Origin: a virus
Taxonomy: Duplodnaviria; Caudoviricetes
Length of the DNA: 54,668 nt
Virus record (IMG/VR): IMGVR_UViG_3300035181_002389
Location: 1-54,668 of that record
Strand: one strand, 5' to 3'
Position numbers and translations under genes: made by a program. The notes beneath the pieces were generated by a model. That model was not told the DNA's origin, did not search any database, and saw only the letters and a list, made by a program, of their open reading frames with translations. Below are positions 6,239-30,715 of this stretch, one piece after another. Every line of letters begins with the position of its first letter. Position 1 is the first letter of the stretch.

Positions 6239-6838
6239 TCAATTGCGTTCTGTTTTTTTGCTTTGAATCGCAATATCTACTGATTTTCTAACATATAAAT
6301 CCTCATCATTGGCAAGAATATCAAGACCATAACCTTGCTTGGCTACCGCTCCTCGAACAAATGGTGATGGATCATTTACCAGCTTTTCAAGGCCATAGCC
6401 TTTCTCAGCTACAGCTAAGCGGACTATGTTTTCTGGATCATTCACGAGAATATCAAGACCGTATCCTTGGTGAGCAACTATACATCGCACAATAGGATCA
6501 GGATCATTAACCAATTTTTCTAAACCGTAACCTTTAGTGGCAACTGTAGCGCGAATTTTATATTTAGGATCCGAAACCAAAATATCGAGAGCATGGCCCA
6601 TCATAGCTAAGGAAAGACGAATATAGTAATTTCCTCTTCGAGCTTTCTTAATGATTTCCTCTTTAGTTGTCTCATCGTTGAACATAACAAAGGTGATTAA
6701 ACTATACTCATCGATGGTAAGTTTTCCATCATTAATGAGACCAATGAGATCTTCATAATGGTATATTCGTTCGTCTATAATGGCGACTTGGTCAATTACA
6801 ACGACCTTATTCCCGTTACGAAGTGTGAAAAATTGCAT
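6239..6838 (-). CDS. HEAT/LRV-type 22-aa repeat protein (5 repeats)
   Basis: GYGLxxLVNDxxxxVRxxVAxx repeats after a ~65-aa N-terminal domain. Confidence 0.85.
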   Translation of the reverse strand: MQFFTLRNGNKVVVIDQVAIIDERIYHYEDLIGLINDGKLTIDEYSLITFVMFNDETTKEEIIKKARRGNYYIRLSLAMMGHALDILVSDPKYKIRATVATKGYGLEKLVNDPDPIVRCIVAHQGYGLDILVNDPENIVRLAVAEKGYGLEKLVNDPSPFVRGAVAKQGYGLDILANDEDLYVRKSVDIAIQSKKTERN

Positions 6839-6867
6839 TTTAGATTTCTATTTTTGATTGAAGAGAA

Positions 6868-7476
6868 TCACCACAAGATAGAAGGTGTATTTTTTCGTTC
6901 TGACAACACTTTCTTTGCAGTTTCTCGAACAAAAAAATCTTCATCGTTGATGAGACTATCCAGTCCGTAGCCTTTTTCAGCGACAGCGCGTCGAACATTT
7001 GGTGAAGGATCATTCACCAGCTTTTCAAGACCATATCCTTGCTCAGCGACAACTTCGCGGACAATATGATTCGTGTCATTCACGAGGATATCGAGACCAT
7101 ATCTGTTACTAGCGACCCTCGAGCGCACAACTGGATTCGGATCGTTTACTAATTTTTCGAGATGGTCTCCAATGTGTGCAACTTCAGCTCGAACCGTAGG
7201 ATCAGGGTCCGAAACTAAAATATCGGTTGCAAACCCTAGGCTGGCTAATACGAAACGAACATCAGGGTCTTCACTTCGAGCATGTTCTTCGATAGTCTCA
7301 TCCAATTCAGGCATGCCCGAAAATGCGGACATAATCTCATCATATTCTTCATTAGTCAGATATTTACTTTTTACCAGATCATAGACATCTTCATGATAAT
7401 AAAATGTGCCATTAATGACAATGTCATAGTAGACGATTATAACTTTCTTACCTTTGCTGGTGAAGAAAACATTCAT
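6868..7476 (-). CDS. HEAT/LRV-type 22-aa repeat protein (5 repeats)
   Basis: Same architecture; tandem paralog of 6239-6838. Confidence 0.85.
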   Translation of the reverse strand: MNVFFTSKGKKVIIVYYDIVINGTFYYHEDVYDLVKSKYLTNEEYDEIMSAFSGMPELDETIEEHARSEDPDVRFVLASLGFATDILVSDPDPTVRAEVAHIGDHLEKLVNDPNPVVRSRVASNRYGLDILVNDTNHIVREVVAEQGYGLEKLVNDPSPNVRRAVAEKGYGLDSLINDEDFFVRETAKKVLSERKNTPSILW

Positions 7477-7487
7477 TTTAATGCTCC

Positions 7488-7691
7488 TTAATTGCAGGGA
7501 TTAATCGCCCTGAGAACTTGTAGAGCCTTGACAATCTGTTCAGAGCGATCAAGAGACAGTCCAGTATCTTTGGCGACTTCGGACGCAGAGAAGTAACGAC
7601 CATCAATCAAATCTTGAGCAGCCTTGATTGCATCAGCAAGCAAATTCATTTGCGTTTGGGTTTTAGTCATTTCAGTAAGCTTCATGATCAT
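7488..7691 (-). CDS. Small hypothetical protein, possible HTH
   Basis: SASEVAKDTGLSLDRSEQIV resembles a helix-turn-helix. Confidence 0.45.
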   Translation of the reverse strand: MIMKLTEMTKTQTQMNLLADAIKAAQDLIDGRYFSASEVAKDTGLSLDRSEQIVKALQVLRAINPCN

Positions 7692-7920
7692 TCCTTTCTA
7701 CATCTTTCATCAATTTCTTGATATCTTCGTATACAACTTCCCAACCAATATCAGAACGTTTATCCAGGAAATCCCAAATTCCAAATGCTTGATGGGCATT
7801 TGGATCACAAACGCCCCAATTATTGCAGTAGACGGCTCCATTTTCATGGATAAAACATTCAAGTTCAATTGGCACCGTTTCGCCCGTATCCTTGAAAAAG
7901 CTTCTTATTATAATCTTCAC
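7672..7920 (-). CDS. Hypothetical protein
   Basis: ORF in the minus-strand operon, overlapping the next gene. Confidence 0.5.
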   Translation of the reverse strand: MKIIIRSFFKDTGETVPIELECFIHENGAVYCNNWGVCDPNAHQAFGIWDFLDKRSDIGWEVVYEDIKKLMKDVERNDHEAY

Positions 7921-7980
7921 CAGTCATCATCAATCCTTTTTCTAAATGCTCGAGAATATCAATTTAGTGCCAGGAAATAA

Positions 7981-8286
7981 TCACTCTGTTGCAGTTGACT
8001 CTTCTTTCGACCGTTTCACCTGATCATGCAGAATTGACAGAATGAAATTGCTAACAATTTTCTCGATATTTTCGTGTGTTGCCTTTGGCGATTGGTCACT
8101 ATTGATGATATCAAAGCTGTAATGAAGTAGACCCTCAACCTTGTCATCAAGCTGCATATCAGCGATTGTAAACATCACTCCTGCCCATTCACCCTCTTCA
8201 ATTCTAAACGTAATAGGATTGTCGCTTTTGACCACCGTAATGTCGGGCACGGTGATCGTATCATTTCCACTTTGGAATGTTTTCAT
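7981..8286 (-). CDS. Hypothetical protein
   Basis: ATG with AAGGA RBS. Confidence 0.6.
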   Translation of the reverse strand: MKTFQSGNDTITVPDITVVKSDNPITFRIEEGEWAGVMFTIADMQLDDKVEGLLHYSFDIINSDQSPKATHENIEKIVSNFILSILHDQVKRSKEESTATE

Positions 8287-8326
8287 TTTATTTCCTTCAT
8301 GTTAAACCAAAAAACACTTCAACATC

Positions 8327-12754: not shown

Positions 12755-13282
12755 TCAAACATTCGCATTCATCTCTGCAAGCCTCTGTTTTGCAACATGA
12801 CGAACATATTTATCAGTGTCGCGGGCCAATGTTTTGAGACCATACCCTTGCTCTGCAACAACCATGCGAACTTCAGGGCGATGATCATTGATCAATTTAT
12901 CAAGCCCGTAGCCCTTTTGAGCAACAGCAACACGAACACCAGAGCAAGTGTCATTGATCAGAACATCAAGACCGTAGCCGTGATTAGCTACTTCTTTGCG
13001 AATCATGTAATGTTCATCATTGATTAGGATGTCCAAAGCCCGCCCATGCTGTGCAATTGCATAGCGAACAATGAAATCTTCATCTATTGCAAACGAGCAA
13101 ACTTCTTCCTCAGTAGACGTACCAGCGTAAGCATTAAGGATTTCATTGATGATGTTGTCGGGAATATTTTCCTTCATTTTCAACACGGAAATATTTTCAA
13201 GACTATACAGTGTAACGCCATAGAAGATAGCATCATCAATCAGAACAATCGTTTTGTAGGAATCGATGTGAAAAACTTTCAT
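12755..13282 (-). CDS. HEAT/LRV-type 22-aa repeat protein (4 repeats)
   Basis: Same N-terminal domain and GYGL repeats; own promoter at about 13323. Confidence 0.85.
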   Translation of the reverse strand: MKVFHIDSYKTIVLIDDAIFYGVTLYSLENISVLKMKENIPDNIINEILNAYAGTSTEEEVCSFAIDEDFIVRYAIAQHGRALDILINDEHYMIRKEVANHGYGLDVLINDTCSGVRVAVAQKGYGLDKLINDHRPEVRMVVAEQGYGLKTLARDTDKYVRHVAKQRLAEMNANV

Positions 13283-13408
13283 AATAAATCCTCTTGATGC
13301 ATTCCGTTGTTGGAATAATGATATTGTACACCATTTCTACGCACCTGCGAGCATTTTTTGTAAAAAAATGTTAAAACCAAATGTTATTCTATACTATAGT
13401 GTGTGAGA

Positions 13409-13453
13409 AAATCTTACTGTAAAAATAGAACTTAATATATCAATGTCTTAAGC
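13409..13453. repeat. 45-bp exact repeat, copy 1, inside a longer imperfect duplication
   Basis: AAATCTTACTGTAAAAATAGAACTTAATATATCAATGTCTTAAGC is identical at 15310-15354. Confidence 0.9.
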
Positions 13454-14280
13454 CAAAATAAGTTGTCAAACTTATCCTCTTGCTTCACGTCACTGTTAGC
13501 ATTGTGGTGATCAGTGATCAATTTTTCTGGGCACCATGATGCTGTTACAAGGTTTGCAAATGTTAGTTGCTGCAAACTCTTGAGTTTATCGCAGTCGTCT
13601 TGAGCCTTCACGCGAAACTCATCCAGTGTACCTGAAAAACTTCCATCTTCAATCAACGGTCCACCTTCAACATTAAAAGCATAGACAGCGCCTAGATAAC
13701 CACCCGCGCCAAAAAATGCTAAAATCGGGTGGCCTTTCTTAGCAACCTTCCCATTAAAAACACACTTATCAGCAAAGTTGCAAAACTCGCCGAAAGAGCA
13801 GCGAGTTCCGAAGACACACCGCGCGTCAAAGACACATCGAGATCCAAAATCACACTGCTCACCAAACGTTGATTCTACACCAAATGAACAAGATTTACTA
13901 AAATTGCACTGCTCGTCAAATGTGCTATATTCTTCGAAGAAACAGTATTCGCCAAAAGAACATCCACCTTCGAATTTACATTTAGCAGCAAACTTACAAT
14001 GCTCGCCGAAGGCAGCACCAATACCGAACAAGCAACGCTCATCGAAAGAACATCCGCTTCCAAAGCGGCACCATTCACCAAAGCTAGACGCCTTGTCAAA
14101 GAAACAACGCTCACCAAAAGAGCAACGATCCCCAAAAACACTATCTTCCGCGAAGAAGCATTCAGCTGCGAAAGCACAATTATTAAAATTCTTTATATCG
14201 ACATAAATTCCCGGCGGGCAATACTTTATGCCATTGATAATCGGAAAAGAATCAAATTCCTTAAGCGCAATTTTCCTCAT
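13432..14280 (-). CDS. FGxxCx hexapeptide-repeat (beta-solenoid) protein, ~23 repeats
   Basis: Strict 6-aa F/C periodicity; N-cap CPxGxY and C-terminal YAFNVEGGP...FSGTLDEFR domain are shared with 15413 and 27424. Confidence 0.85.
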   Translation of the reverse strand: MRKIALKEFDSFPIINGIKYCPPGIYVDIKNFNNCAFAAECFFAEDSVFGDRCSFGERCFFDKASSFGEWCRFGSGCSFDERCLFGIGAAFGEHCKFAAKCKFEGGCSFGEYCFFEEYSTFDEQCNFSKSCSFGVESTFGEQCDFGSRCVFDARCVFGTRCSFGEFCNFADKCVFNGKVAKKGHPILAFFGAGGYLGAVYAFNVEGGPLIEDGSFSGTLDEFRVKAQDDCDKLKSLQQLTFANLVTASWCPEKLITDHHNANSDVKQEDKFDNLFWLKTLIY

Positions 14281-14396: not shown

Positions 14397-14738
14397 TTAA
14401 ATGTAGTATCCGTTAGTATTGACAACACCACCGTAGTCAAGTGTCAGCTCTTGTGTTTCATCATCCCAATCACCCCATTTAGATGGACAACCACCCCAAC
14501 TCACTGCCCCTCGCAATGCGTCAGGAAATGTTATCATGAAACAGATAGAACCTTCTTCTTGACAAATCCGCCATACGGTACAACCAACCTTTAGGTATTT
14601 TGCTTGGTCACATGGAATGAGCATTCGAATGTCATCAATATTTTCTTTAGTTACCGAAACCTTCATTCTATTAAACTCCTGAATACACTTCCACGTGATT
14701 CGTGGGCTCAAGATTTGTTTAATTTTAATACCCACCAA
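14397..14738 (-). CDS. Hypothetical protein
   Basis: ORF track; start uncertain. Confidence 0.5.
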   Translation of the reverse strand: MVGIKIKQILSPRITWKCIQEFNRMKVSVTKENIDDIRMLIPCDQAKYLKVGCTVWRICQEEGSICFMITFPDALRGAVSWGGCPSKWGDWDDETQELTLDYGGVVNTNGYYI

Positions 14739-17932: not shown

Positions 17933-18015
17933 GATTAGTTCCTTCTATCGTTTTTATTACTAGTGTGTTTATTATAGCATGATCTATTACCGATATCAAA
18001 GATCAAAGTGTCTTT

Positions 18016-19429: not shown

Positions 19430-19451
19430 GATTCAGTCCTTATTAGGAAGA

Positions 19452-19733: not shown

Positions 19734-19765
19734 TAAGTCCTTTCATTGAATGAGGAACTAACTAG

Positions 19766-20038: not shown

Positions 20039-20090
20039 ATTAATTCCTTTCATGAATTGTGTATGTTGTTATTAAATGTTCTTCTTTTCA

Positions 20091-20372: not shown

Positions 20373-20402
20373 CGCGCGTTCCTTTCGCAAATACGGCCTA
20401 TG

Positions 20403-22586: not shown

Positions 22587-23142
22587 TCACAAATTCCGCA
22601 ACCATATCAAACAACCATATGACGAGTAGAGGTACTCGTCATTGTTTACTGTTAGGTTCCTTGATGCAGAAAAAGGAATTTCCTTCAGAAGGTTAATCAA
22701 CCAAGTCTTTATACAACGAGCGCCTTCTCTTGATGCATTGAGATAATCGAGATAGTACTCTTTTTCAATTTTTTCATGTAAAAATGGGCTTCGCTTAACA
22801 TTATACAAACACCGCTCATAATCTCTTTTTAGCGTCTCGGTCAGTTTGTACAACCCAATGGCAACCTCTTCATGTGAAGTGCGATAGTAACCTTCGGGTT
22901 TCTCAATAACGAAACGTTTACCATTGATGTTTTGAAACTTAACAAGAACATCACAATTGACGATCGAGCACGTTCTTAAGCTCATGTCAATTCCATCAAA
23001 TGTGCGGGCGAGCCAGTTAAATGCGTCCTCATTGCTATTAGCATGAATTTTCAAAAGTATATGAATTATGCCCAACTAAATTCTTCATCTTAGGGCCGAG
23101 AGGGTTGTGCAGCTTAATTCTAAACGTTTTGTGGTTCATCAT
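22587..23142 (-). pseudogene. Family C (FEIHA/PEGYYR) copy with a +1 frameshift
   Basis: MMNHKTFRIKLHNPLGPKMKNLVGHNSYTFE from 23142 matches the N-terminus of 29581-30132. An extra base in the run at 23048-23051 shifts the frame before IHANS. Confidence 0.75.
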
Positions 23143-23234
23143 TTTCGCCCGCACTTTCATGAATTCTATAATTTCAATTTTTAACACACCAAATTTTGAT
23201 TAGATACTTTTACGTGATGTCTCCTTTTACTGTT

Positions 23235-23498
23235 TTATACAGCCTCATAGGTTGCCTCAAAAATGTCCGGTTTGCACGGATAAAACTCACCCTTCACGCC
23301 ACGGATGATCCAGTCTCCAGGCGTTACTTCGTGCGGACCTTCCAATGTGCCAATGCGCCACGTCAACACTGTGTCATTGTAGATCGTTGCATCTACCGTC
23401 GTTACACCAAACTCAGTTTCCATTTTTATCTTTGATTCAAGTGTCCCATCAAACTGGTGCGCTTCAATCACTACCGGTTTCTTCCTAAATTTAGCCAT
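23235..23498 (-). CDS. Conserved phage protein of the KKPVVIEA/PGDYG-like family, copy 1
   Basis: MAKFRKKPVVIEA...TLEG...PGDWIIRGVKGEFYPCKPDIFEATYE. Confidence 0.85.
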   Translation of the reverse strand: MAKFRKKPVVIEAHQFDGTLESKIKMETEFGVTTVDATIYNDTVLTWRIGTLEGPHEVTPGDWIIRGVKGEFYPCKPDIFEATYEAV

Positions 23499-23558
23499 AT
23501 GAGCGATTGCCACGTTGGGTTATACCAGAAGTATATCGCATGTCATGTCCTTTCTAAT

Positions 23559-23987
23559 TCAGATGACGCATTCAAAGAATGCTGGGCGGTCAATGCAGTC
23601 TATGCAATTTCTGCGTTCGAAGCAGTTTTCGCACCGAATGCAATCATCACTCCCAGAGCAGTGCTTGCAACTGATGCAATCGACGCAGTATTCGCAAATT
23701 ATACAATCTGTACACCTATCGCAGACTTTGCACTCAAAGCAGTTGACGCAACTGTCACATTTCTTGCTGCCCTTGCAGTTGACGCATCTGTTGCATTGAG
23801 TGCAATCGGTGCAACCTACACAATCAAAGCAACACTCGCAGTTTACACAGTTGACACAATTAACACAGTTGACACAATTGATGCAGCCTGCATCATCAAG
23901 AGCTTTGACAATTGCATCGGCTTCGGCTTGTGACTTGTAGCTGACCGCTGTGTTCCCTTTTGGTGAGGTGCTGGTGAAGAATTTCAT
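23559..23987 (-). CDS. Cys-rich CxxCxx repeat protein, copy 1
   Basis: N-cap SPKGNxxxSYxSQxEAD...LDDAGC followed by Cys every third residue; AGGAG RBS directly after the tRNA. Confidence 0.8.
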   Translation of the reverse strand: MKFFTSTSPKGNTAVSYKSQAEADAIVKALDDAGCINCVNCVNCVNCVNCECCFDCVGCTDCTQCNRCVNCKGSKKCDSCVNCFECKVCDRCTDCIICEYCVDCISCKHCSGSDDCIRCENCFERRNCIDCIDRPAFFECVI

Positions 23988-24005
23988 TTGAATCTCCTTT
24001 GTCGT

Positions 24006-24081
24006 TGGTTCCACCTACAGGATTCGAACCTGCAATCTGTCACTTATAAGGCAACTGCTCTACCAATTGAGCTAAGGTGGC
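24006..24081 (-). tRNA. tRNA-Ile(UAU)
   Basis: 76-nt cloverleaf GCCACCTTAGCTCAATTGGTAGAGC...CTTATAA...GGTTCGAATCC...GGTGGAACCA; encoded CCA; G1-A72 mismatch; two G-U pairs in the anticodon stem. Confidence 0.85.
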
Positions 24082-24092
24082 AATGAAATCAG

Positions 24093-24257
24093 TTAGTTAG
24101 CTCGAAGCGCGTCAACTTCTCGGTCAAGAGAACTGTATGAGTATAAAGAAGTATCGCCGTAATTGTCACCTTTTATGAGAACAAGACAAGCGATATTCCC
24201 ATCACAAAGGAACCGATAATGGGCGGAATCTTCTTCAGTCTTGTAATCAAGTTCAAT
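24093..24257 (-). pseudogene. DxxRYxFL family copy with ATT (mutated or non-canonical) start
   Basis: IELDYKTEEDSAHYRFLCDGNIACL...SLDREVD aligns to 29228-29563; GGAG lies 8 nt before the ATT. Confidence 0.55.
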
Positions 24258-24285
24258 GCTATATTCTCCAAAGAGTTCGATGCAG

Positions 24286-24561
24286 TTAAAATCGCTCGCT
24301 CAAGATTGCGTAAAGGCGCGTGTTGCCATTGACATCGACGAGGTCACCAGTCTTCTTCGAGCGGTAAACTATCGCGTCACCTTCGAAAGCCTCGTCACGA
24401 AGCTCGCAGTTTAAGAAGAACTTAATTTTGCTGTAGTCGGTGATACCAGCAGCTTCGATTGCTGATTTAACCGTGTGCTTGACGCTCTTGCCAGCAGGGA
24501 TGACTGCGAGGAGGTCTTGATCGTTCATCACCACTACGTAGAGCGGTTCGCTTTTCTTCAT
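24286..24561 (-). CDS. Hypothetical protein
   Basis: AGGAG RBS; first gene after a consensus promoter. Confidence 0.7.
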   Translation of the reverse strand: MKKSEPLYVVVMNDQDLLAVIPAGKSVKHTVKSAIEAAGITDYSKIKFFLNCELRDEAFEGDAIVYRSKKTGDLVDVNGNTRLYAILSERF

Positions 24562-24591
24562 GATGCTACTCCTGTTTGCGTTGTCGAGTAT

Positions 24592-24620
24592 ATTATATCA
24601 CAATCTGCAGCAGATGTCAA
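24592..24620 (-). promoter_or_regulatory. Consensus sigma70 promoter TTGACA-17-TATAAT with extended TG
   Basis: -10 at 24592-24597, -35 at 24615-24620. Confidence 0.8.
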
Positions 24621-24641
24621 GCAACCTTACAGGTTGTAGAG

Positions 24642-24920
24642 TTATTCAACAGTGCGATGCGAGACGCGGACCAGACAGCTGCCCTTAGTGCATTCTACAC
24701 ACTCGATACAGTAGTTGCAGGCGATGCAGTGCTTGCAATTTGCGCAGCCTTTGCATCCGTAGCAGTCGTTGCAGTCAGAACAGTTGTAGCATTCAACACA
24801 ATTGATGCAGTTGGTGCAACCTGAAGCGTCAAGCATTGCACATCATTCTTCAGCTTCGGTTTGACTTCGTTCACTCCAAGAGCTGTTGCCTTTGGATGAT
24901 ACACTTGAAACATATCGCAT
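24642..24920 (-). pseudogene. Cys-rich repeat protein copy 2 with an in-frame TGA
   Basis: MRYVSSVSSKGNSSWSERSQTEAEE*CAMLDASGC; the TGA at 24843-24845 aligns with Arg in two paralogs. Confidence 0.75.
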
Positions 24921-24938
24921 GATGAGTATCCCTTTGAA

Positions 24939-25262
24939 TCAATTTCGAATGTATTGATAAAGATAAGCATCCCTTTCAATCTCACGCAACAGAGCAATGA
25001 ACTCGCCAACTTCGTTTGCAGGAACTCCTAAGAAAAACCCAAAAATTTCCGAATCTGAATCTGACCAGGGTTGACGCTTGCCGTCAATCTCTCGATCAAG
25101 GTCTTTACCTTTGAGATCTTCAAATCCTGAGAAATCAAATCCTCGATTTCGAAGCCAGCGATAACGAGCAGCATCTGCTTCAGTATTACGAATGCGGTTT
25201 ACCAGCTCTTCGATTTCGACAGTAGAATTTTGATTAGAACAAGATGTGTTGAACATGACCAT
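24939..25262 (-). CDS. DAARYRWLR-motif phage protein
   Basis: EADAARYRWLR...DLDREID is shared with 29228-29563. Confidence 0.65.
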   Translation of the reverse strand: MVMFNTSCSNQNSTVEIEELVNRIRNTEADAARYRWLRNRGFDFSGFEDLKGKDLDREIDGKRQPWSDSDSEIFGFFLGVPANEVGEFIALLREIERDAYLYQYIRN

Positions 25263-25400
25263 TTTAGACCACCTTGAGAACTTTAATATCAGTGAGTGAT
25301 GTCATATAAAGCAAAAATGGCGATTGCAATGTAAATGACAGCTACGACGATATCAGAGAAAGTAAACATGATATTTCCTATTCGCAAATCGCAAATGTTT

Positions 25401-25476
25401 TGGCTCCCCAACCTGGGCTCGAACCAGGGACCTGCGGATTAACAGTCCGACGCTCTACCGACTGAGCTATTGGGGA
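25401..25476 (-). tRNA. tRNA-Asn(GUU)
   Basis: TCCCCAATAGCTCAGTCGGTAGAGC...CTGTTAA...GGTTCGAGCCC...TTGGGGAGCCA, a canonical 76-nt tRNA. Confidence 0.95.
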
Positions 25477-25483
25477 ATGTGAG

Positions 25484-25930
25484 TTAAAGTTTCGTATTTA
25501 TCACCTCGCACACTACATCGAAATCATCGACGTTAAGATCACACGCAATGAACACGAGGGGCTTTCCTGGAGTGTTGTTGCGTGCGTAAGCTGCATGAGG
25601 CATCTTGTTGTTGAGGACAAATACTGAGCCATCGGCAAGATTGCCTACACGCTTCCAGTCCTTTTCGTATAGCACATGATCGCCAGAAAGCACGACGCCT
25701 AGAGTTATGTCGAATGGCACACTGTCGTCTGTATGTTCGCTTACGCCTAACGAAGCGTAGAGACCAGCGTTGTATGACTCAGGGTGCAGCTGTAGTATCA
25801 CGTTGAGAAGCGAATGCGAAATAGGCGCAGGTACAATATCATCAAATTTTGCCTCATTCATCAGACGAGACAGGACCTTCGGATCGACTTTAGGCAGACT
25901 CAGTTCAGCGTCAAATACAATTGCGTTCAT
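25484..25930 (-). CDS. Putative 2OG-Fe(II) oxygenase/cupin-fold protein
   Basis: VSEHTD (HxD) and a distal FVLNNKMPHAA His. Confidence 0.55.
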   Translation of the reverse strand: MNAIVFDAELSLPKVDPKVLSRLMNEAKFDDIVPAPISHSLLNVILQLHPESYNAGLYASLGVSEHTDDSVPFDITLGVVLSGDHVLYEKDWKRVGNLADGSVFVLNNKMPHAAYARNNTPGKPLVFIACDLNVDDFDVVCEVINTKL

Positions 25931-25943
25931 ATGCTCAACGGAC

Positions 25944-26477
25944 TTAGATGCTCACGGAAATGCTTTGCTGCAATGTCAAGTACTCTTTCATCAGGTTTGA
26001 CATCCATGTTGAAGCAAGTTTAGCCGCTTCCTTTGCTACATTGATACGCTCGAGATAATATTCAAGCTTGAATTTCTCGTACATCTGCGAAGAATATTCG
26101 GCAATGTTCAAGCACTCATTATAATCATGATTAATCGTGTTGAATAGTTTGAACAGCCCGCTAACAATTTCCTTCGGTGTGCGACGAAAATATCCCTCAG
26201 GTGTTTCAACAGGAACACGCTTTCCATTTACGAACCCATACTTCTTGAGCTCATCACAATCGATGATATGAACAGGGTCTGCGCAACCGACCTTATATTC
26301 CCTGACTGATTTGGAATAGACATCAATGCCCGGGAATACACGCTCAACCCACTTCGCAGCTTCCTGAAGATCAGATGCATGGATGTTGAAGGAATACATA
26401 TCCTTCGACACAAGACTCCATGTCTCAGAGCCGTAGGGATGGAAAAGCATGACATGAAACGTTTTCGAACTTATCAT
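25944..26477 (-). CDS. Family C (FxIHA/PEGY) protein
   Basis: Probable start MISSKTFHV; paralog of 29581-30132 and 22587-23142. Confidence 0.75.
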   Translation of the reverse strand: MISSKTFHVMLFHPYGSETWSLVSKDMYSFNIHASDLQEAAKWVERVFPGIDVYSKSVREYKVGCADPVHIIDCDELKKYGFVNGKRVPVETPEGYFRRTPKEIVSGLFKLFNTINHDYNECLNIAEYSSQMYEKFKLEYYLERINVAKEAAKLASTWMSNLMKEYLTLQQSISVSI

Positions 26478-26599
26478 CTTTACACTCGCTTCTAAAAGTT
26501 TCTGAATCGCCATCATGAAACAACTAGTAGAAAATGGTACCTTTCACAAGATGTTATTCCATGATCTGTCCTTTTTCCATTATTCTTGTTGTTGGGTAT

Positions 26600-26652
26600 A
26601 TTATATCATGATCTGGTATCGTTGCCAATAACCTACAAGTTAAATGTGTAAC
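26600..26652 (-). promoter_or_regulatory. Early promoter TTGGCA-17-TATAAT with upstream GTTACAC
   Basis: -10 at 26600-26605, -35 at 26623-26628, box at 26646-26652 (40 nt gap). Confidence 0.6.
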
Positions 26653-26654
26653 TT

Positions 26655-26729
26655 CTTGTATCCCTCAGGGATTAAACTGGCAATCTATAGCTTATATGTT
26701 GACTGCTCTAACAATTGAGCTAATGTGGC
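26655..26729 (-). pseudogene. Decayed tRNA-Ile(UAU) copy
   Basis: GCCACATTAGCTCAATTGTTAGAGCAGT...ATATAAG aligns to 29083-29158; the anticodon and T arms are broken. Confidence 0.7.
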
Positions 26730-26820
26730 ACACATGATAGCTATCATATTGCCATGATTATGGCACAGAAAATGTTAAGAATCACCCACAAAAAGTATGG
26801 TCTCTACCAGAGACAATCAA

Positions 26821-26964
26821 TTAGGTGAAGAGATGGAGACATATAAGGAAAACGCCAATCACATAAGCGATGATGAAGCACGGCGGGAAGAATGTCGAAG
26901 ATGGAAGAAGGATTAAAATTGCTGCAATGCCAATGTAGGTAATCGTGTCTCTAATTTTAACCAT
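26821..26964 (-). CDS. 47-aa hydrophobic peptide
   Basis: MVKIRDTITYIGIAAILILLPSSTFFPPCFIIAYVIGVFLICLHLFT; AAGGA RBS; -10 at 27003-27008. Confidence 0.5.
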   Translation of the reverse strand: MVKIRDTITYIGIAAILILLPSSTFFPPCFIIAYVIGVFLICLHLFT

Positions 26965-27136
26965 ATTTTCAATCCTTCGGTATTTCCGTTGCTATTGTGT
27001 AAATTATATCATAATTTGGCGTCTTTGCCGATAAGACAGCTTATAGTGTAACCAGACAATTATATTACATCTTGTCATTGTAACTCTTGTTCATCATTTA
27101 AGATGAAAGTTTTGACAATGCTGACTGCATCAAAAG

Positions 27137-27400
27137 CTATACCGCCTCATAGGTCGCCTCGAAAATGTCTGGTTTACAAGGGTAGAATTCACCCTTGACA
27201 CCACGGATGATCCAGCCCCCGGGCGATACTTCGTGCAGGCCTTCTAGTGTGCCAATCTGCCATGTAATCAGCTTGCCATAACAGATTTTTACATCAACAG
27301 TCGGAACCCCAAATTCAGTTTCCAGTTTCTTCTTTGATTCAAATGTCCCATCAAACTGGTGTGCTTCAATCACTACCGGCTTCTTCCTAAATTTTGCCAT
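27137..27400 (-). CDS. KKPVVIEA/PGDYG-like protein, copy 2
   Basis: N- and C-termini nearly identical to 23235-23498; GGAGG RBS. Confidence 0.85.
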   Translation of the reverse strand: MAKFRKKPVVIEAHQFDGTFESKKKLETEFGVPTVDVKICYGKLITWQIGTLEGLHEVSPGGWIIRGVKGEFYPCKPDIFEATYEAV

Positions 27401-27423
27401 ATTATCCTCCATGATAATCAAAC

Positions 27424-28248
27424 TCAATTGCTTTGTCTAGATTTTTCAACCTTTTCTGGATACCAGACAGATGCAACGATGTCGGCAAATCCCAAACATT
27501 GCAAACGCTTAAAAGCATCATCATCAATGACTTTTGCACGGAAAGTATCGATATTGCCTATGAATTTATCAATCTCAAATATTGGACCGCCTTCAACATT
27601 GAAGGCATAAATTGTCAGGTTGGAGCTACCCACACCAGACATAGTCATCATCGGGTGCCCCGGAAGGGCAATTTGACCATCAAAAACACATTTCTGACCG
27701 AATGTAGAATCAATTCCGAACATGCAATGTTTGTCAAATTGACACTGATTCCCAAAGGTGCACAATGCGCCAAATCTGCACCATTGGCTGAAAGAGCATT
27801 CGTCTACAAATTCGCACCAATCACCAAATTGATTCGAGGTGCCGAATCTGCATTGCTTGCTAAAGATGCACTCTCTACTAAATACGCACTTCAATCCAAA
27901 TACGCACGCTTCACCGAACCTGGAAAATTCGTTGAACGAACATGCGTTGCCAAACACACTCTCATGGCCAAAGACACATCCGTCGGCGAATTCGCACCAG
28001 TCACCGAACTTAGAATTCGTGTGGAAAATGCAGCCAGAGCCGAACTTGCAGCAATCGGCGAAAATACAGTTCTGTAAGAACTCACAAAAATCACCAAATA
28101 CAGATTGTTCGCTGAAAACACATCCATCGGCAAATATGTTTTTGCTACCAAAGGCGACAATTGTAGTATAATCGCCAGTTGGGCACTGACGATAGCCGTT
28201 GACAATTGGTAACGCGTCAAAATCTGATTGAGTATATATTTTCATCAT
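27424..28248 (-). CDS. FGxxCx hexapeptide-repeat protein, ~26 repeats
   Basis: Same caps as 13432 and 15413. Confidence 0.85.
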   Translation of the reverse strand: MMKIYTQSDFDALPIVNGYRQCPTGDYTTIVAFGSKNIFADGCVFSEQSVFGDFCEFLQNCIFADCCKFGSGCIFHTNSKFGDWCEFADGCVFGHESVFGNACSFNEFSRFGEACVFGLKCVFSRECIFSKQCRFGTSNQFGDWCEFVDECSFSQWCRFGALCTFGNQCQFDKHCMFGIDSTFGQKCVFDGQIALPGHPMMTMSGVGSSNLTIYAFNVEGGPIFEIDKFIGNIDTFRAKVIDDDAFKRLQCLGFADIVASVWYPEKVEKSRQSN

Positions 28249-28283
28249 GTTCCCCAGTGATGAAGAAGACTGTTCTATTCAGT

Positions 28284-28667
28284 TTAATTAGTCATGCCTG
28301 CGCACTCTTTACAGTTACCGCAATTGGAACAACCGATGCAGATGACACAGTCAGCACAATTGGTACAATTAACACAATTTGTACACTTAACACAGCTAAT
28401 GCAATTTGCGCATTTAGTACAGCCTTCACTGTCAAAGCAGCTGACACAATCATTGCAATCGGTACAGTTTTTACATTCAACACAGCCTATGCAACCATCA
28501 CAATTAACACAGCTAGCACAACCAATGCAATTTTTGCAATCGATACAGTCGATACATTTTGTGCACCCAGCCTCATCAAGAGCTTTACATCTCGTATCAG
28601 CTTCAGTTTGGCTCTCGTAACTAAATGAGCGATTTCCTTTAGAAGAAATACTGGAGAGATAACGCAT
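28284..28667 (-). CDS. Cys-rich CxxCxx repeat protein, copy 3
   Basis: Conserved N-cap plus Cys triplet periodicity. Confidence 0.8.
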   Translation of the reverse strand: MRYLSSISSKGNRSFSYESQTEADTRCKALDEAGCTKCIDCIDCKNCIGCASCVNCDGCIGCVECKNCTDCNDCVSCFDSEGCTKCANCISCVKCTNCVNCTNCADCVICIGCSNCGNCKECAGMTN

Positions 28668-28698
28668 GATGTTTCTTTCGATGTTTACAACAACTAGT

Positions 28699-29055
28699 TT
28701 ATTTTACGTTGTTAGTGCAGAATGAACAGTCAACACAATTAATGGATTCAAGGCAATTATTGCAATTTTTACAATTGATACAGTTTTTGCATTGAGAACA
28801 ATCAGTGCAGTGGATGCAACCAAAACAATCAGTACATCCAACACATTTCTTAGAATTACTGACATCAACACAATCTACACAACCAGCACAATTAAAGCAG
28901 CCTACGCAACCAGTGCAATTTTTACAATTGATGCAATTGAAGCAATTGACACACCCAGCGTCATCAAGTGCTTTACAAAGCATATCAGCATCTTCTTGTG
29001 ATTTAAGACTGGTTGAACAGTTGCCATTTTTAGAAACAGCAGAAATATAGTACAT
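28699..29055 (-). CDS. Cys-rich CxxCxx repeat protein, copy 4
   Basis: Same architecture; begins 27 nt after the tRNA 3' end. Confidence 0.8.
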   Translation of the reverse strand: MYYISAVSKNGNCSTSLKSQEDADMLCKALDDAGCVNCFNCINCKNCTGCVGCFNCAGCVDCVDVSNSKKCVGCTDCFGCIHCTDCSQCKNCINCKNCNNCLESINCVDCSFCTNNVK

Positions 29056-29082
29056 AGTGCATCCTTCTTAAAGTGAAATGAG

Positions 29083-29158
29083 TGGTTCCACCTGCAGGAT
29101 TCGAACCTGCAACCTGTCGCTTATAAGGCAACTGCTCTACCAATTGAGCTAAGGTGGC
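29083..29158 (-). tRNA. tRNA-Ile(UAU)
   Basis: 76-nt cloverleaf differing from the 24006 copy at three positions; loop CTTATAA; G1-A72 mismatch; encoded CCA. Confidence 0.9.
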
Positions 29159-29166
29159 GTATATAC

Positions 29167-29233
29167 TGGGTCTTTAGCTTGGATTCAAACCAAGAACTTA
29201 CAACTTATGTTGTCATTACTTTTCCTTTTAAGC
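29167..29233 (-). pseudogene. tRNA remnant
   Basis: D-arm-like GCTTAAAAGGAAAAGT, T-arm CTTGG-TTTGAAT-CCAAG and terminal CCA; no matching 5' acceptor strand. Confidence 0.45.
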
Positions 29234-29563
29234 ATTTGAGAGAATGAGATTATCAACTTCTTGATCGAGAGCATCGAATGAATAAAAATCAAGGATGCCA
29301 TGATCAAGGGATACATATTCAAGACAACAAATATTGCCATCGCTGAGAAAACGATATCGTGCAGCATCTGTTTCTAGATCGCGCGAACGATCACTAACAA
29401 AATCCATATGTCTAATATTGATATCAACCTCATCATCAAGGTCAACACCATCAGAAAAGACTAGCTCATTTTCAAGCAAGCCGTACTCAAGGCAGCTGAG
29501 ACCACCCTCGCGAAGAAATTGATAACGGGTGGCATCTTTTTTAGTCTTATAATCGATGACCAT
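29228..29563 (-). CDS. DxxRYxFL-motif protein with two internal repeats
   Basis: DATRYQFLREG...LDDEVD and DAARYRFLSDG...LDQEVD. Confidence 0.7.
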   Translation of the reverse strand: MVIDYKTKKDATRYQFLREGGLSCLEYGLLENELVFSDGVDLDDEVDINIRHMDFVSDRSRDLETDAARYRFLSDGNICCLEYVSLDHGILDFYSFDALDQEVDNLILSNA

Positions 29564-29580
29564 GATATATACTTCCTTGT

Positions 29581-30132
29581 TTAGACTTGTGCTGCGATTT
29601 TGCTTACAGCATCCAAAAGCGCTCGGCGAACCTCTTCACGCATTGGTTCCATGTTACACTGAATTGGAAATTCATTCAATAGATTTACTAGCCATGTCTT
29701 GATACGGACAGAGCCTTCTTTTGCCTCATTGAGATCCTTGAGATGAGAATCAGTTTCAAAATTTTCGTATAGTATCGCGCAGCACTTAACTTGATCTGAG
29801 ATTTTCGCATAATCATCACTGAGCGCCTCTACCAGATTGCATAGACTGACGGCAACCTCTTCAGGGGAAGAGCGATAGTATCCTTCAGGCTTTTCGATAA
29901 TGAACTGTTTCCCATTTATACGATGATACTTCTTAATAGCATCACAATCGATAATAGAGTCAGCGCACATTTCCATATCAATGCCATCGAACATGTGCGT
30001 AACCCAATCCAATGCTTCCTGATAATTGGCAGCATGAATTTCAAAAGTATATGAATCTCGCCCAATGAGAGTTTTTGTCTTAGGTCCAAGAAAATTACGC
30101 AACTTAACTTGATATGTCTTTGGGTTCATCAT
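29581..30132 (-). CDS. Family C (FEIHA/PEGYYR) protein
   Basis: Intact copy; promoter TTGATA/TATAAT at 30163-30190. Confidence 0.8.
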   Translation of the reverse strand: MMNPKTYQVKLRNFLGPKTKTLIGRDSYTFEIHAANYQEALDWVTHMFDGIDMEMCADSIIDCDAIKKYHRINGKQFIIEKPEGYYRSSPEEVAVSLCNLVEALSDDYAKISDQVKCCAILYENFETDSHLKDLNEAKEGSVRIKTWLVNLLNEFPIQCNMEPMREEVRRALLDAVSKIAAQV

Positions 30133-30244
30133 TTTCCTTTCACAATTTTTATTGTTGGGTATATTATAACATGTTCTAGCAAAATATCAAACAATCGTAC
30201 ATGTTGCAAAGTTGCTTACAGATGATTCCTATCCGTTGACATCA

Positions 30245-30715
30245 TCATTTTGAATAATCATCAACGTCATGATTCATGTGATATGTCAATCCACTAGACC
30301 GAGTATAACTAGTGCACCATGTACAGTCTTCACATTCTTCGCAATCATCGCAATTGAAGCAAGCTTTGCATTCGTTGCAAGCAGTACAGCCAGCACACTG
30401 CACGCAATTGATGCAATTGATGCAGTCAGTACAGTCTGTGCAAACTTTGCATTCGTTACCGGTGGAGCAGACTTTACAATCTGTACAATCGATACAATCT
30501 GTACAATCGATACAATCAGTACAGTGGGTGCAATTTGTGCAATCAACACATCCAACGCAGCCTACACAGTGGCTGCAATTGATGCATTCGACACAACCGA
30601 AACAGTTTACACAGTTGGCTTCATCTAGTTCTTTGCAACGCGCATCAGCCTCTGCCTGTGACACGTAGCTCCACGAGTGATTTCCTTTAGGCGAAACTTC
30701 AGACACGTAATACAT
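30245..30715 (-). CDS. Cys-rich CxxCxx repeat protein, copy 5
   Basis: Conserved N-cap; internal 18-bp tandem DNA repeats encode CTDCID. Confidence 0.8.
   Translation of the reverse strand: MYYVSEVSPKGNHSWSYVSQAEADARCKELDEANCVNCFGCVECINCSHCVGCVGCVDCTNCTHCTDCIDCTDCIDCTDCKVCSTGNECKVCTDCTDCINCINCVQCAGCTACNECKACFNCDDCEECEDCTWCTSYTRSSGLTYHMNHDVDDYSK

What the first reader, a model, noticed from the sequence alone, without database searches (positions are those of the whole stretch)
6239..30715. Three independently expanded solenoid-repeat protein families: a candidate diversified binder arsenal
Seen: 15 early genes with one design, a conserved cap plus a variable number of repeats. There are 7 HEAT/LRV 22-aa proteins, 3 FGxxCx hexapeptide proteins and 5 CxxCxx proteins, many with their own promoter. 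Framework residues are fixed while other positions vary between repeats and paralogs. Known: solenoid scaffolds are general binding surfaces, and phage early regions hold host-takeover and anti-defence genes. Inference: this is an accordion-like repertoire of binders or decoys against host immune proteins, diversified by duplication and repeat slippage rather than by a reverse transcriptase.
Basis: partly seen in the sequence, partly recalled or inferred. Interest (0 to 1): 0.72.

Follow-up and report, generated by a model that had tools for sequence, protein, structure and literature searches.

The report
Phage early-region solenoid repeat-protein families
An uncultured T4-like phage carries 15 small repeat-protein genes of three kinds in its variable early region; they are real, old and conserved, they were copied together as gene blocks, and what they bind or do is still unknown.

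Summary
On the minus strand of 6239-30715 lie 7 HEAT/LRV-like proteins built of exact 22-aa units, 3 proteins with 22-27 FGxxCx hexapeptides, and 5 proteins with 14-31 Cxx triplets. One Cxx gene is broken by an in-frame TGA.

- **Not independent:** the families were copied as multi-gene blocks (F+H; tRNA-Ile+C; C next to X, Y or Z), and F->H and C->F neighbours recur in relatives.
- **Not recent:** silent sites are saturated between paralogs. Several paralogs have orthologs in two related contigs. dN/dS is 0.1-0.2 overall and about 0.6 at the variable HEAT positions. Four metagenomes hold a near-clonal population.
- **Promoters:** eight conserved sigma70-type boxes head multi-gene units, so few genes have their own.

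New here: the FGxxCx proteins end in an unnamed ~80-aa domain found in 654 mostly viral protein clusters. There it follows interchangeable beta-solenoids (FGxxCx, Cxx, pentapeptide, hexapeptide, YdcK). The Cxx model resembles the beetle antifreeze Cys-ladder beta-helix.

My best reading is non-enzymatic early binder or scaffold proteins in a T4-type hyperplastic region. An anti-defence role is untested.

The parts
6239..6838 (-). H1, HEAT/LRV-like 22-aa repeat protein (199 aa) with N-terminal cap
   Evidence: Pfam HEAT 39.9 bits and phrog_20647. Ortholog in L012 has 65% aa identity and dN/dS 0.19.
6868..7476 (-). H2, HEAT/LRV-like protein (202 aa)
   Evidence: Pfam HEAT 52.9 bits. Ortholog in L012 has 89% aa identity and dN/dS 0.14, and there is an ortholog in G001.
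12755..13282 (-). H3, HEAT/LRV-like protein (175 aa); part of duplicated block F1-H3
   Evidence: Ortholog in G001 with support 100/99. Two non-synonymous SNPs at unit positions 7 and 9 in all 4 runs.
14725..15192 (-). H4, HEAT/LRV-like protein (155 aa from the ATG at 15192); part of block F2-H4
   Evidence: Start chosen by alignment to H6 and H7 and by the conserved ribosome-binding site.
16616..16906 (-). H5, capless HEAT/LRV-like protein (96 aa, repeats only)
   Evidence: A promoter-like site (9 of 12) and a Shine-Dalgarno sequence lie upstream.
17471..17932 (-). H6, HEAT/LRV-like protein (153 aa)
   Evidence: A strong promoter box (11 of 12, with TG extension) lies at 17999-17971.
18016..18756 (-). 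H7, HEAT/LRV-like protein (246 aa, 7 regular units)
   Evidence: H6-H7 have dN 0.23 and dS 1.43.
13432..14280 (-). F1, FGxxCx hexapeptide beta-solenoid (24 units) plus C-terminal domain plus a tail read from the spacer
15413..16132 (-). F2, N cap, 22 FGxxCx units and the conserved ~80-aa C-terminal alpha/beta domain (residues 156-236)
   Evidence: AlphaFold2 model with pLDDT 94.9. Fold searches. Domain profile search.
27424..28248 (-). F3, FGxxCx beta-solenoid (27 units) plus C-terminal domain; 35 nt downstream of C3
   Evidence: Ortholog in G001 with support 99/100.
23559..23987 (-). C1, Cxx Cys-ladder protein (142 aa from the ATG at 23987), directly after tRNA-Ile
   Evidence: phrog_15341. 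Start and upstream tRNA.
24642..24923 (-). C2, Cxx gene broken by an in-frame TGA between cap and repeats (a 64-aa capless ORF remains at 24642-24836)
   Evidence: Translation. phrog_15341 hit on the 64-aa part.
28284..28667 (-). C3, Cxx Cys-ladder protein (127 aa)
   Evidence: Model pLDDT 73.2. Best PDB match is 1ezg_A, Z 9.3, rmsd 3.1 A, 81 residues aligned to the 82-residue chain.
28699..29055 (-). C4, Cxx Cys-ladder protein (118 aa), directly after the second tRNA-Ile
30245..30715 (-). C5, Cxx Cys-ladder protein (156 aa, pI 4.2), directly after a degenerate tRNA-like element
24006..24081 (-). tRNA-Ile(TAT), copy 1
   Evidence: ARAGORN. Rfam 60 bits.
29083..29158 (-). tRNA-Ile(TAT), copy 2, 95% identical to copy 1 over 65 nt
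25401..25476 (-). tRNA-Asn(GTT)
30793..30860 (-). Degenerate tRNA-like element (CAT anticodon region)
   Evidence: Rfam tRNA 33.4 bits against a threshold of 29. Not called by ARAGORN. Sequence.
13283..13520 (-). F1->H3 spacer with promoter-like site and ribosome-binding site; mean column identity 89% with the F2->H4 spacer (15193-15430)
   Evidence: (D13, D18).
17946..17999 (-). One of eight conserved sigma70-type promoter boxes. The others have their first hexamers at 21464, 22610, 24620, 26628, 27031, 30190 and 31583.
   Evidence: (D12, D17). A stem-loop precedes the box clearly only at 22610 (z -3.6) and weakly at 31583 (z -1.9).
19148..20660 (-). Five tandem paralogs of ~85-99 aa (family V), part of the same variable region
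   Evidence: D5, D10, D15. No Pfam hit. V hits in G001.
22587..30132 (-). Further paralog families interleaved with the C genes: X (22587-23075, 25944-26516, 29581-30132), Y (23235-23513, 27137-27427), Z (24939-25262, 29228-29563)
   Evidence: (D7, D11, D14, D16). No Pfam hit.

Best explanation
The span is the variable ('hyperplastic') early region of an uncultured T4-like phage. It encodes three families of non-enzymatic solenoid proteins.

Shown:
- Seven alpha-solenoid HEAT/LRV-like proteins have a frozen framework and one variable stripe on the first helix of each unit.
- Three beta-solenoids are built of FGxxCx hexapeptides and end in a conserved ~80-aa alpha/beta domain.
- Five narrow Cys-ladder beta-solenoids are built of Cxx triplets.
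- The families grew by old duplications of multi-gene blocks, not one family at a time.
- Most paralogs are retained as orthologs in relatives and evolve under purifying selection.
- The F family belongs to a large, unnamed, mostly viral superfamily. In it the same C-terminal domain follows interchangeable beta-solenoid types.

Inferred:
- The proteins are made early from shared sigma70-type promoters.
- They act stoichiometrically by binding. Each retained HEAT paralog would offer a different surface to a host or phage partner.
- The F and C rods would act as rigid spacers or mimics, capped or paired through the C-terminal domain.
- Which partners they bind, and whether these are defence proteins, is unknown.
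For: Phage type and region:
- PHROG hits include clamp loader, Dda-like and other helicases, NrdA/B and endolysin.
- The HEAT family also occurs in Straboviridae phages vB_VmeM-32 (6 places) and Acinetobacter phage 133 (5 places).
- 0 of 35 other small ORFs in the region has a Pfam hit.

Family membership and repeat regularity.

Block duplication:
- Spacing of 1901-1910 nt between the H3-F1 and H4-F2 features.
- tRNA-Ile lies directly upstream of both C1 and C4.
- G001 has the order F-H-W-C-X-Z-C-F-F-U-U-U-V-V-V...H.

Old and retained:
- dS is saturated or above 1.3 in 12 of 14 paralog pairs and 0.84-0.94 in Y1-Y2 and V2-V3.
- Starred ortholog pairs are H1-L012, H2-L012/G001, H3-G001 and F3-G001.
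- dN/dS is 0.19 for H1, 0.14 for H2 and 0.11 for the ClpP-like gene.
- In H1 against its ortholog, 27 of 48 variable positions changed (dN/dS about 0.59). 16 of 84 framework positions changed (about 0.09).

C-terminal domain superfamily:
- The profile hits 654 clusters at E<=0.001 and 78 at 1e-10.
- Pfam on 30 chosen members gives Pentapeptide in 5, Hexapep in 8 and YdcK solenoid in 4. No family covers the domain itself.
- 4 of 47 Cxx homologs carry the domain.
- The protein atlas finds the same domain, TM 0.76-0.84, on viral clusters of which several carry Hexapep, Pentapeptide or YdcK families.

No catalytic family was detected for any of the 15 proteins (for 7 of them). All 15 are acidic, with pI 4.2-5.7.
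Against: - No partner, expression datum or phenotype exists. No RNA run holds the stretch, so 'early' rests on promoter type and strand only.
- The variable HEAT positions do not exceed the silent rate here (dN/dS 0.59, one ortholog pair, 48 codons). Selection for new binding specificities is therefore not shown.
- H2 is almost unchanged in its repeats between two phages: 4 of 48 variable positions changed.
- In F1 and F3 the most conserved motifs of the C-terminal domain (GS..RT, GCF) are degraded. That domain may therefore be only a structural cap.
- A Cys content of 22-25% in the C family could point to metal binding rather than protein binding.
Confidence: 0.5

Rival explanations
1. One reading: the 15 genes are a diversified arsenal of binders or decoys aimed at host immune proteins, kept diverse by an arms race.
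For: - The genes sit in an early variable region, and solenoid scaffolds with a variable surface stripe suit binding.
- Gene and repeat numbers differ between relatives.
- The HEAT family is expanded much further in other large phages: G003 and G004 each give 30 matches, spread over about a dozen open frames.
- Both SNPs that separate the window's H3 from all 4 runs are non-synonymous and fall at variable unit positions 7 and 9. This is only 2 of 2 sites, a very small sample.
Against: - No similarity to any known anti-defence protein was seen in Pfam, PHROGs or NCBIfam.
- The paralogs are old and kept as orthologs with dN/dS 0.1-0.2.
- The variable positions stay below the neutral rate.
- The population is near-clonal, with no listed indel inside an H, F or C gene except a 1-nt one at the first base of C1, seen in 3 of 4 runs.
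Confidence: 0.2
2. The beta-solenoid families (F and perhaps C) work like pentapeptide-repeat proteins. On this reading they are acidic rods that pair tail to tail through the C-terminal domain, mimic a nucleic-acid duplex, and occupy host DNA enzymes such as gyrase or nucleases.
For: - The same C-terminal domain follows true pentapeptide repeats in relatives. Pfam PF00805 scores 88-223 bits in 5 of 30 members scanned, and the atlas lists such clusters.
- The F2 model superposes best on a pentapeptide-repeat protein (2j8k_A: Z 13.4, rmsd 2.9 A, 164 aligned).
- The solenoid parts carry net charges of -7 to -9 in F and -15 in C5.
- A review (PMC10886550, passages read) states that pentapeptide-repeat proteins are beta-solenoids that mimic DNA and are typically dimers joined by C-terminal helices.
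Against: - The charge is modest: C4 has net 0, and C1 and C3 have -5 and -4.
- The repeat period is 6 or 3 residues, not 5.
- Rod length varies widely between homologs (132-327 aa), which fits poorly with mimicry of a fixed DNA site.
- Dimerisation could not be tested, because the complex predictor was unavailable.
Confidence: 0.15
3. The cysteine-rich families are metal-binding proteins. They would hold zinc or iron-sulfur-like thiolate sites in each coil, and their role would be metal handling, redox buffering or metal-stabilised structure rather than target binding.
For: - One residue in three is Cys over runs of 11-17 uninterrupted Cxx units.
- Cys is at position 5 in 56 of 73 F units.
- The proteins have no signal-peptide-like N terminus by eye. 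Disulfides of the beetle antifreeze kind are therefore unlikely in a reducing cytoplasm (my inference).
Against: - There was no Pfam zinc-finger hit except one weak zf-CXXC match (16.7 bits against a cut-off of 26.5).
- The models pack as a solenoid without any metal. This shows only that metal is not required by the predictor.
- In F units, Ser replaces Cys in 11 of 73, which fits a small core residue better than a ligand.
Confidence: 0.1
4. The genes are dispensable cargo of a recombination-prone region. On this reading they were copied and kept by the shuffling machinery of T4-type hyperplastic regions, with little selected function.
For: - The region is a patchwork of at least nine paralog families and tRNA remnants.
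- One member (C2) is broken.
- Single genes are present or absent between the window and L012.
- A regulatory spacer stays 89% identical between blocks whose genes have diverged to 40-68% nt identity, which suggests gene conversion.
- Promoter/terminator cassettes (PeSLs) are reported to drive such shuffling in T4-like phages (PMC4122927, abstract read).
Against: - Purifying selection (dN/dS 0.05-0.19) acts on all six orthologous genes compared, including H1 and H2.
- Specific paralogs are retained across three contigs.
- The families are widespread in viruses.
Confidence: 0.08

Closest known systems
Leucine-rich repeat variant / short HEAT-like alpha-solenoids (Pfam HEAT PF02985, LRV PF01816). 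The Azotobacter vinelandii LRV protein as the structural type is recalled, not tested.
   Same: Short helix-turn-helix units with the ..D....VR..VA.. signature. 7 of 7 proteins pass Pfam HEAT. Look-alike viral clusters carry LRV in 14-92% of members.
   Different: The unit is exactly 22 residues. No Pfam LRV match to the window's proteins at E<=0.01. A ~65-aa N-terminal cap is specific to phrog_20647. The family is phage-encoded and multi-copy.
Hexapeptide-repeat left-handed beta-helix proteins (Pfam Hexapep PF00132; LpxD, GlmU, YdcK)
   Same: A six-residue period with a large hydrophobic residue at position 1, Gly at 2 and a small residue at 5. 6 of 50 F homologs carry PF00132. The highest structural Z scores are to LpxD and YdcK (16.3 and 16.0).
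   Different: The window's F proteins do not reach the Pfam cut-off. Those structural matches have rmsd of about 12 A, and Foldseek finds no PDB match at E<=0.001. No acyltransferase domain or active-site region is present. An unnamed C-terminal domain replaces it.
Pentapeptide-repeat DNA-mimic proteins (MfpA, Qnr, AlbG)
   Same: An acidic beta-solenoid rod with a C-terminal element. Relatives of F carry real pentapeptide repeats before the same C-terminal domain. The F2 model gives rmsd 2.9 A to 2j8k_A.
   Different: The period is 6 or 3, not 5. The C-terminal element is a ~80-aa alpha/beta domain rather than a helix. No evidence of dimers or of gyrase binding.
Tenebrio molitor antifreeze protein (PDB 1ezg), a Cys-ladder 12-residue beta-helix
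   Same: The best PDB match of the C3 model: Z 9.3, rmsd 3.1 A, 81 residues aligned to the 82-residue chain, 24% identity. It is a narrow solenoid lined by cysteines.
   Different: Twice the cysteine density (every third residue). No TCT motif in 0 of 5 proteins. No secretion signal by eye. The proteins are phage cytoplasmic, and the model confidence is only moderate (pLDDT 73).
Hyperplastic regions and PeSL cassettes of T4-type phages (PMC2839356, search listing and start of abstract; PMC4122927, abstract)
   Same: Variable unknown ORFs are grouped between core genes. A conserved early-promoter motif is repeated in the spacers (8 boxes). Gene presence and absence differs between relatives. 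One spacer is far better conserved than its flanking genes.
   Different: A stable stem-loop precedes the promoter clearly in only 1 of 8 boxes, and weakly in a second. The published cases concern swaps between phages, not in-genome families of repeat proteins.

Membership tests
HEAT / LRV alpha-solenoid repeats | Match to the Pfam HEAT model above its gathering score | tested here: met
   7 of 7 proteins score 27.2-56.8 bits against a cut-off of 23.5.
HEAT / LRV alpha-solenoid repeats | Match to the Pfam LRV model (PF01816) | tested here: not met
   No LRV row for any of the 7 proteins at E<=0.01. Only look-alike viral clusters carry it.
HEAT / LRV alpha-solenoid repeats | Helical hairpin units stacked into a solenoid (three-dimensional structure) | not tested
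The atlas holds no model of H7.
Left-handed beta-helix hexapeptide proteins | Match to Pfam Hexapep (PF00132) above its cut-off | tested here: not met
   0 of 3 window proteins match. F1 has only a weak LbH_EIF2B hit (23.1 bits against a cut-off of 54). 6 of 50 homologs carry PF00132.
Left-handed beta-helix hexapeptide proteins | Left-handed triangular beta-helix fold | tested here: inconclusive
   The F2 model (pLDDT 94.9) gives Z 16.3 to LpxD 4e75_A but with rmsd 12.2 A over 156 residues. The best superpositions (rmsd 2.5-2.9 A) are to 2j8k_A and 4wa0_A, which I recall as right-handed solenoids. I could not inspect the coordinates.
Pentapeptide-repeat DNA mimics | Five-residue repeat (Pfam PF00805) | tested here: not met
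   No PF00805 hit for any window protein. The period is 6 or 3.
Pentapeptide-repeat DNA mimics | Dimer joined at the C termini | not testable with these tools
   The complex predictor's queue was full and the tool was then withdrawn.
TmAFP-type Cys-ladder beta-helix | Narrow 12-residue-per-coil beta-helix with a cysteine core | tested here: met
   The C3 model against 1ezg_A gives Z 9.3, rmsd 3.1 A, 81 residues aligned to the 82-residue chain. The next-best Z is 6.5. The model has pLDDT 73, so this rests on a moderate-confidence prediction.
TmAFP-type Cys-ladder beta-helix | TCT ice-binding motif repeated on one face (motif recalled) | tested here: not met
   0 TCT in each of the 5 C proteins.
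T4-type hyperplastic region with PeSL cassettes | Conserved early-promoter motif repeated between variable ORFs | tested here: met
   8 boxes share an invariant TG.TATAAT and a -35-like hexamer.
T4-type hyperplastic region with PeSL cassettes | Stem-loop directly upstream of the promoter | tested here: inconclusive
   Of 8 boxes, 1 has a strong hairpin (z -3.6, 0 of 200 shuffles as stable) and 1 a weak one (z -1.9). The other 6 are no better than shuffles.
Unnamed beta-solenoid C-terminal domain superfamily (phrog_20532 / phrog_7964 region) | ~80-aa C-terminal alpha/beta domain after a beta-solenoid | tested here: met
   Present in F1, F2 and F3. The profile of 15 sequences finds 654 clusters. 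Structure matches reach TM 0.76-0.84. It is absent from the five window C proteins, judging by their ends in alignments A3 and A4.

The most novel reading that the evidence does not exclude
Phages possess a modular 'rod kit'. One conserved, still unnamed ~80-aa C-terminal domain would be the working or pairing end. Evolution freely swaps the beta-solenoid in front of it (FGxxCx, Cxx Cys-ladder, pentapeptide, hexapeptide, YdcK type) and tunes its length. Together with the co-inherited HEAT/LRV paralogs (conserved F->H and C->F gene pairs), these proteins would form early-expressed complexes that jam host nucleic-acid or defence machinery by shape mimicry. The Cxx rods may be held together by a column of metal-thiolate sites, an architecture not described for any cytoplasmic protein.
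Probability: 0.12. Interest if true: 0.8.

Novelty: new variant of a known kind. Interest (0 to 1): 0.5.

Why it matters
Large phages spend much of their early DNA on small genes that no database explains. Here three such families turn out to be regular, old and conserved solenoid proteins that travel together. One of them exposes a widespread phage domain that has no name in Pfam or NCBIfam and no sequence match among solved structures, and that accepts at least five kinds of beta-solenoid in front of it.

This gives concrete, cheap targets for structure determination, metal analysis and partner searches. Cultured phages carry members: Vibrio phage vB_VmeM-32 and Acinetobacter phage 133 for the HEAT family, and Shewanella phages Thanatos-1 and -2 for the F family. 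The functions could therefore be tested by knock-out.

The result also tempers the attractive 'natural binder library under arms-race selection' reading. In this genome the evidence points to a stable, purified repertoire.

Tried and rejected
- **Near-identical phage search.** Megablast of 14 kb against 50,697 phage records gave no match.
- **tblastn with C5** against phage records gave no match, probably because of the low-complexity filter.
- **Foldseek against PDB** gave no match at E<=0.001 for either model.
- **Sequence profile of the C-terminal domain against PDB** gave only two thioredoxin chains at E about 0.8, which I take as chance.
- **NCBIfam** gave only sub-threshold hexapeptide-enzyme rows for F, one sub-threshold CpcF row for H7, and nothing for the C proteins or the domain.
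- **Rfam** on the whole window gave only tRNAs.
- **Expression.** No RNA holder is listed for 12700-19000.
- **Repeat-number variation in four DNA runs.** One joint in H7 (18180->18390, skipping 209 with 11 letters put in, a net 198 nt or 3 units) appears in X1 and X2. Its shorter side is only 27 letters and it lies at contig ends inside a repeat. I treat it as unproven.
- **Paralog dN/dS as a test of diversifying selection** was rejected because dS is saturated.
- **Cxx family tree** is unreliable because of long branches and was not used.
- **Homodimer prediction for F2.** The queue was full and the tool was then withdrawn, so nothing was folded.
- **Suppressor tRNA for the TGA in C2.** None of the tRNAs found is a suppressor.
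- **T4 late promoter motif.** There were 2 matches in the window against 3.15 expected, and none on the minus strand within the span.
- **Literature searches** found no paper describing these phage families. The library lacks most subscription journals, so this is not proof of absence.

Full report
**What the window is**

The window is a 54,668-bp fragment of an IMG/VR virus record, estimated at 15% complete. PHROG matches to a clamp loader, Dda-like and other helicases, NrdA/NrdB and an endolysin mark it as a T4-like myovirus. These are all on the minus strand.

No near-identical phage is in the phage collection. The nearest cultured phages carrying one of the families are Straboviridae: Vibrio phage vB_VmeM-32 and Acinetobacter phage 133.

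All 15 genes lie on the minus strand.

The seven H genes pass Pfam HEAT, 7 of 7, and hit phrog_20647, 7 of 7. Their units recur at exactly 22 residues. Over 29 units, positions 2, 5, 10, 11, 14, 15, 18 and 21 are nearly invariant. Positions 6-9, 12, 13, 16 and 17 carry most of the variation. That pattern is one face of the first helix of each unit (helix assignment inferred; no H structure was predicted). H5 is a capless version.

The three F genes hold 24, 22 and 27 FGxxCx hexapeptides in unbroken register. They sit between a conserved N cap and a conserved C-terminal domain.

The five C genes hold 14-31 Cxx triplets after a ~34-residue cap. They hit phrog_15341, 5 of 5. C2 has its cap in frame upstream but interrupted by TGA. 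No suppressor tRNA is present.

**Promoters**

Eight minus-strand boxes share a -35-like hexamer and an invariant extended -10. They head multi-gene units. Of the 15 genes, only H6 has a strong box directly upstream, and H3, H4 and H5 have weaker ones.

The T4 late motif is absent from this strand of the span. Early timing is therefore a reasonable inference, but it is not shown. No RNA run holds the stretch.

**The families did not expand independently**

H3-F1 and H4-F2 are two copies of a ~1.9-kb block. Their F->H spacer has a mean column identity of 89%. The flanking genes have fallen to 40-68% nucleotide identity. That fits gene conversion or strong constraint on a regulatory cassette.

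C1 and C4 each follow a tRNA-Ile(TAT) copy, and C5 follows a degenerate tRNA-like element. The C genes are interleaved with paralog families X, Y and Z. Five V paralogs, two W and three U lie nearby. None of 35 such small ORFs has a Pfam hit.

The closest large relative is G001 (126,753 bp, 75% complete). It carries a compact syntenic version, F-H-W-C-X-Z-C-F-F-U-U-U-V-V-V...H. A C gene lies upstream of F on the same strand within 1.5 kb in 9 of 23 F-seeded loci. Several of these loci are probably near-identical phages from different samples. In the window, C3 ends 35 nt before F3.

**The duplications are old and the copies are kept**

Nei-Gojobori dS is undefined or above 1.3 for 12 of 14 paralog pairs. 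It is 0.84-0.94 for Y1-Y2 and V2-V3. Where dN/dS is measurable it lies between 0.09 and 0.36, for example 0.16 for H6-H7, 0.34 for H1-H2 and 0.11 for Y1-Y2.

In trees, four pairings form starred ortholog pairs: H1 with L012, H2 with L012 and G001, H3 with G001, and F3 with G001. H4, H6 and H7 group together as a local expansion with support 86/92.

Against contig L012, dN/dS values are:

| Gene | dN/dS |
|---|---|
| H1 | 0.19 |
| H2 | 0.14 |
| ClpP-like neighbour | 0.11 |

Within H1, 27 of 48 variable-position codons changed (dN 0.41, dS 0.69). 16 of 84 framework codons changed (dN 0.13, dS 1.40). In H2, only 4 of 48 and 3 of 84 changed. So the variable stripe evolves faster, but not faster than silent sites.

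H1's dS is 1.2 against about 0.45 for its neighbours H2 and the ClpP-like gene. The cap of H2 has dS 2.3 against 0.1-0.3 in its repeats. Both point to mosaic recombination.

**Population data**

Four DNA runs hold 97% of the sampled words. They are two microbial-mat and two sediment metagenomes from 2020. One may be the source of the record.

Their contigs are identical to the window over long stretches, for example 15325-18178 and 25453-29149. No listed indel lies inside an H, F or C gene, except a 1-nt one at 23987, the first base of C1. It was seen in 3 of 4 runs at a minority of the depth.

The differences listed in the families are few. Two are non-synonymous SNPs in H3, at unit positions 7 and 9. 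Five are SNPs in F1, of which 3 are synonymous. One poorly anchored joint would remove three units of H7.

**Structure**

The F2 model is confident (pLDDT 94.9, pTM 0.86). It shows a solenoid of two-residue strands every six residues, followed by a five-strand, two-helix domain.

VIA-align gives its highest Z to left-handed hexapeptide enzymes, but at about 12 A rmsd. Its best superpositions (2.5-2.9 A) are on 2j8k_A, a pentapeptide-repeat protein, and 4wa0_A, which I recall as right-handed solenoids. Foldseek finds nothing in PDB at E<=0.001. The fold class is therefore clear, but handedness is not.

The C3 model (pLDDT 73) matches the beetle antifreeze Cys-ladder helix 1ezg best: Z 9.3, rmsd 3.1 A, 81 residues aligned to the 82-residue chain. 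The C proteins have twice that protein's cysteine density (recalled). None of the five contains a TCT motif.

**The new link between the F and C families**

A profile of the F C-terminal domain, built from 15 sequences of the window and related loci, finds 654 representative clusters at E<=0.001.

Among the 146 newly listed proteins, my motif count classes 51 as FGxxCx, 41 as short or domain-only, and 54 as other.

Pfam on 30 chosen members shows the following:
- Pentapeptide in 5.
- Hexapep in 8, of which 5 are above the cut-off.
- YdcK solenoid in 4.
- No family on the domain itself.

Four of 47 Cxx homologs also end in this domain, at E 1e-12 to 1e-14 in a small database. The protein atlas independently aligns the domain (TM 0.76-0.84) to mostly viral clusters, several of them carrying Hexapep, Pentapeptide or YdcK families. 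All are unnamed. BFVD hits are likewise uncharacterised phage proteins. The domain has no name in Pfam or NCBIfam and no sequence match among solved structures.

The window's five C proteins lack the domain. In F1 and F3 its most conserved motifs are degraded.

**Wider distribution**

The HEAT family forms many virus-only clusters. G003 and G004 each give 30 matches, spread over about a dozen open frames.

Earlier notes of this scan describe similar LRV families in lake T4-like phages as possible binder libraries. I treat these as leads only. Here the key claim, a surface changing faster than silent sites, is not met.

The Cxx family has more than 117 confirmed viral loci.

**Reading**

No catalytic family was detected for any of the 15 proteins (for 7 of them). 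All 15 are acidic, regular and retained.

The best-supported reading is a set of non-enzymatic early proteins that work by binding or by shape. They sit in a T4-type hyperplastic region, a concept taken from the abstract of PMC4122927. The promoter part of the PeSL idea fits, but the stem-loop part mostly does not.

The rival readings are:
- An anti-defence role.
- DNA mimicry, based on passages of PMC10886550 read, and on a Listeria phage pentapeptide-like gene that sits in an operon on the phage's long terminal repeat (PMC12282133, one passage read).
- Metal binding.

All remain open, and none is backed by a direct result.

Noticed in passing
window 24837-24923 (-): C2's family cap is present in frame upstream of the 64-aa ORF but is ended by a TGA. 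In the paralogs that position holds Arg (C3, C5), Ile (C1) or Leu (C4). The gene is either a nonsense pseudogene or a capless restart.
   Followed up: partly
window 24006-24081, 29083-29158, 26666-26730, 30793-30860 (-): There are two tRNA-Ile(TAT) copies, 95% identical to each other, plus two degenerate tRNA-like remnants. One remnant reaches Rfam tRNA 33.4 bits but is not called by ARAGORN. tRNA genes were copied along with the C genes.
   Followed up: partly
window 13283-13520 and 15193-15430 (-): The F->H spacer has a mean column identity of 89% between the two blocks, although the silent sites of the flanking genes are saturated. In F1 part of the spacer is translated as a C-terminal tail, while in F2 it is non-coding.
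   Followed up: partly
window 9244-9251 (+) and 9509-11296 (+): The only plus-strand gene in the span is a 595-aa DNA methyltransferase (phrog_67, E 1e-62). It is preceded by one of the window's two TATAAATA motifs, which is T4-late-like. Two matches are no more than chance (3.15 expected).
   Followed up: no
window 4583-8833 against L012 261-3146: In the related contig L012, H1 abuts the ClpP-like gene. The window's genes 5232-5948 and 7672-7920 are absent there, and a W-like gene sits elsewhere. These are single-gene indels typical of a plastic region.
   Followed up: partly
window 18180-18390 (H7): Contigs of runs X1 and X2 show a joint that would remove a net 198 nt (3 repeat units) of H7, at 12.9 of about 31 and 5.75 of about 31 depth. 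The anchor is only 27 letters and lies inside a repeat, so it may be an assembly artefact.
   Followed up: partly
window 6868-7476 (H2) against L012 1280-1885: H2 is mosaic relative to its ortholog. Its cap has dS 2.28, while its repeats have dS 0.1-0.3.
   Followed up: no
protein P0130 (444 aa, metagenomic): One member of the C-terminal-domain superfamily has the domain after an RRXRR plus HNH endonuclease instead of a solenoid. This could be a real fusion or a homing-endonuclease insertion.
   Followed up: no
window 19148-20660, 21502-22550 (-): Five tandem ~85-99-aa paralogs (V) and three paralogs sharing a 'YID..I..Q' end (U) have no Pfam hit. Both families recur in G001.
   Followed up: partly
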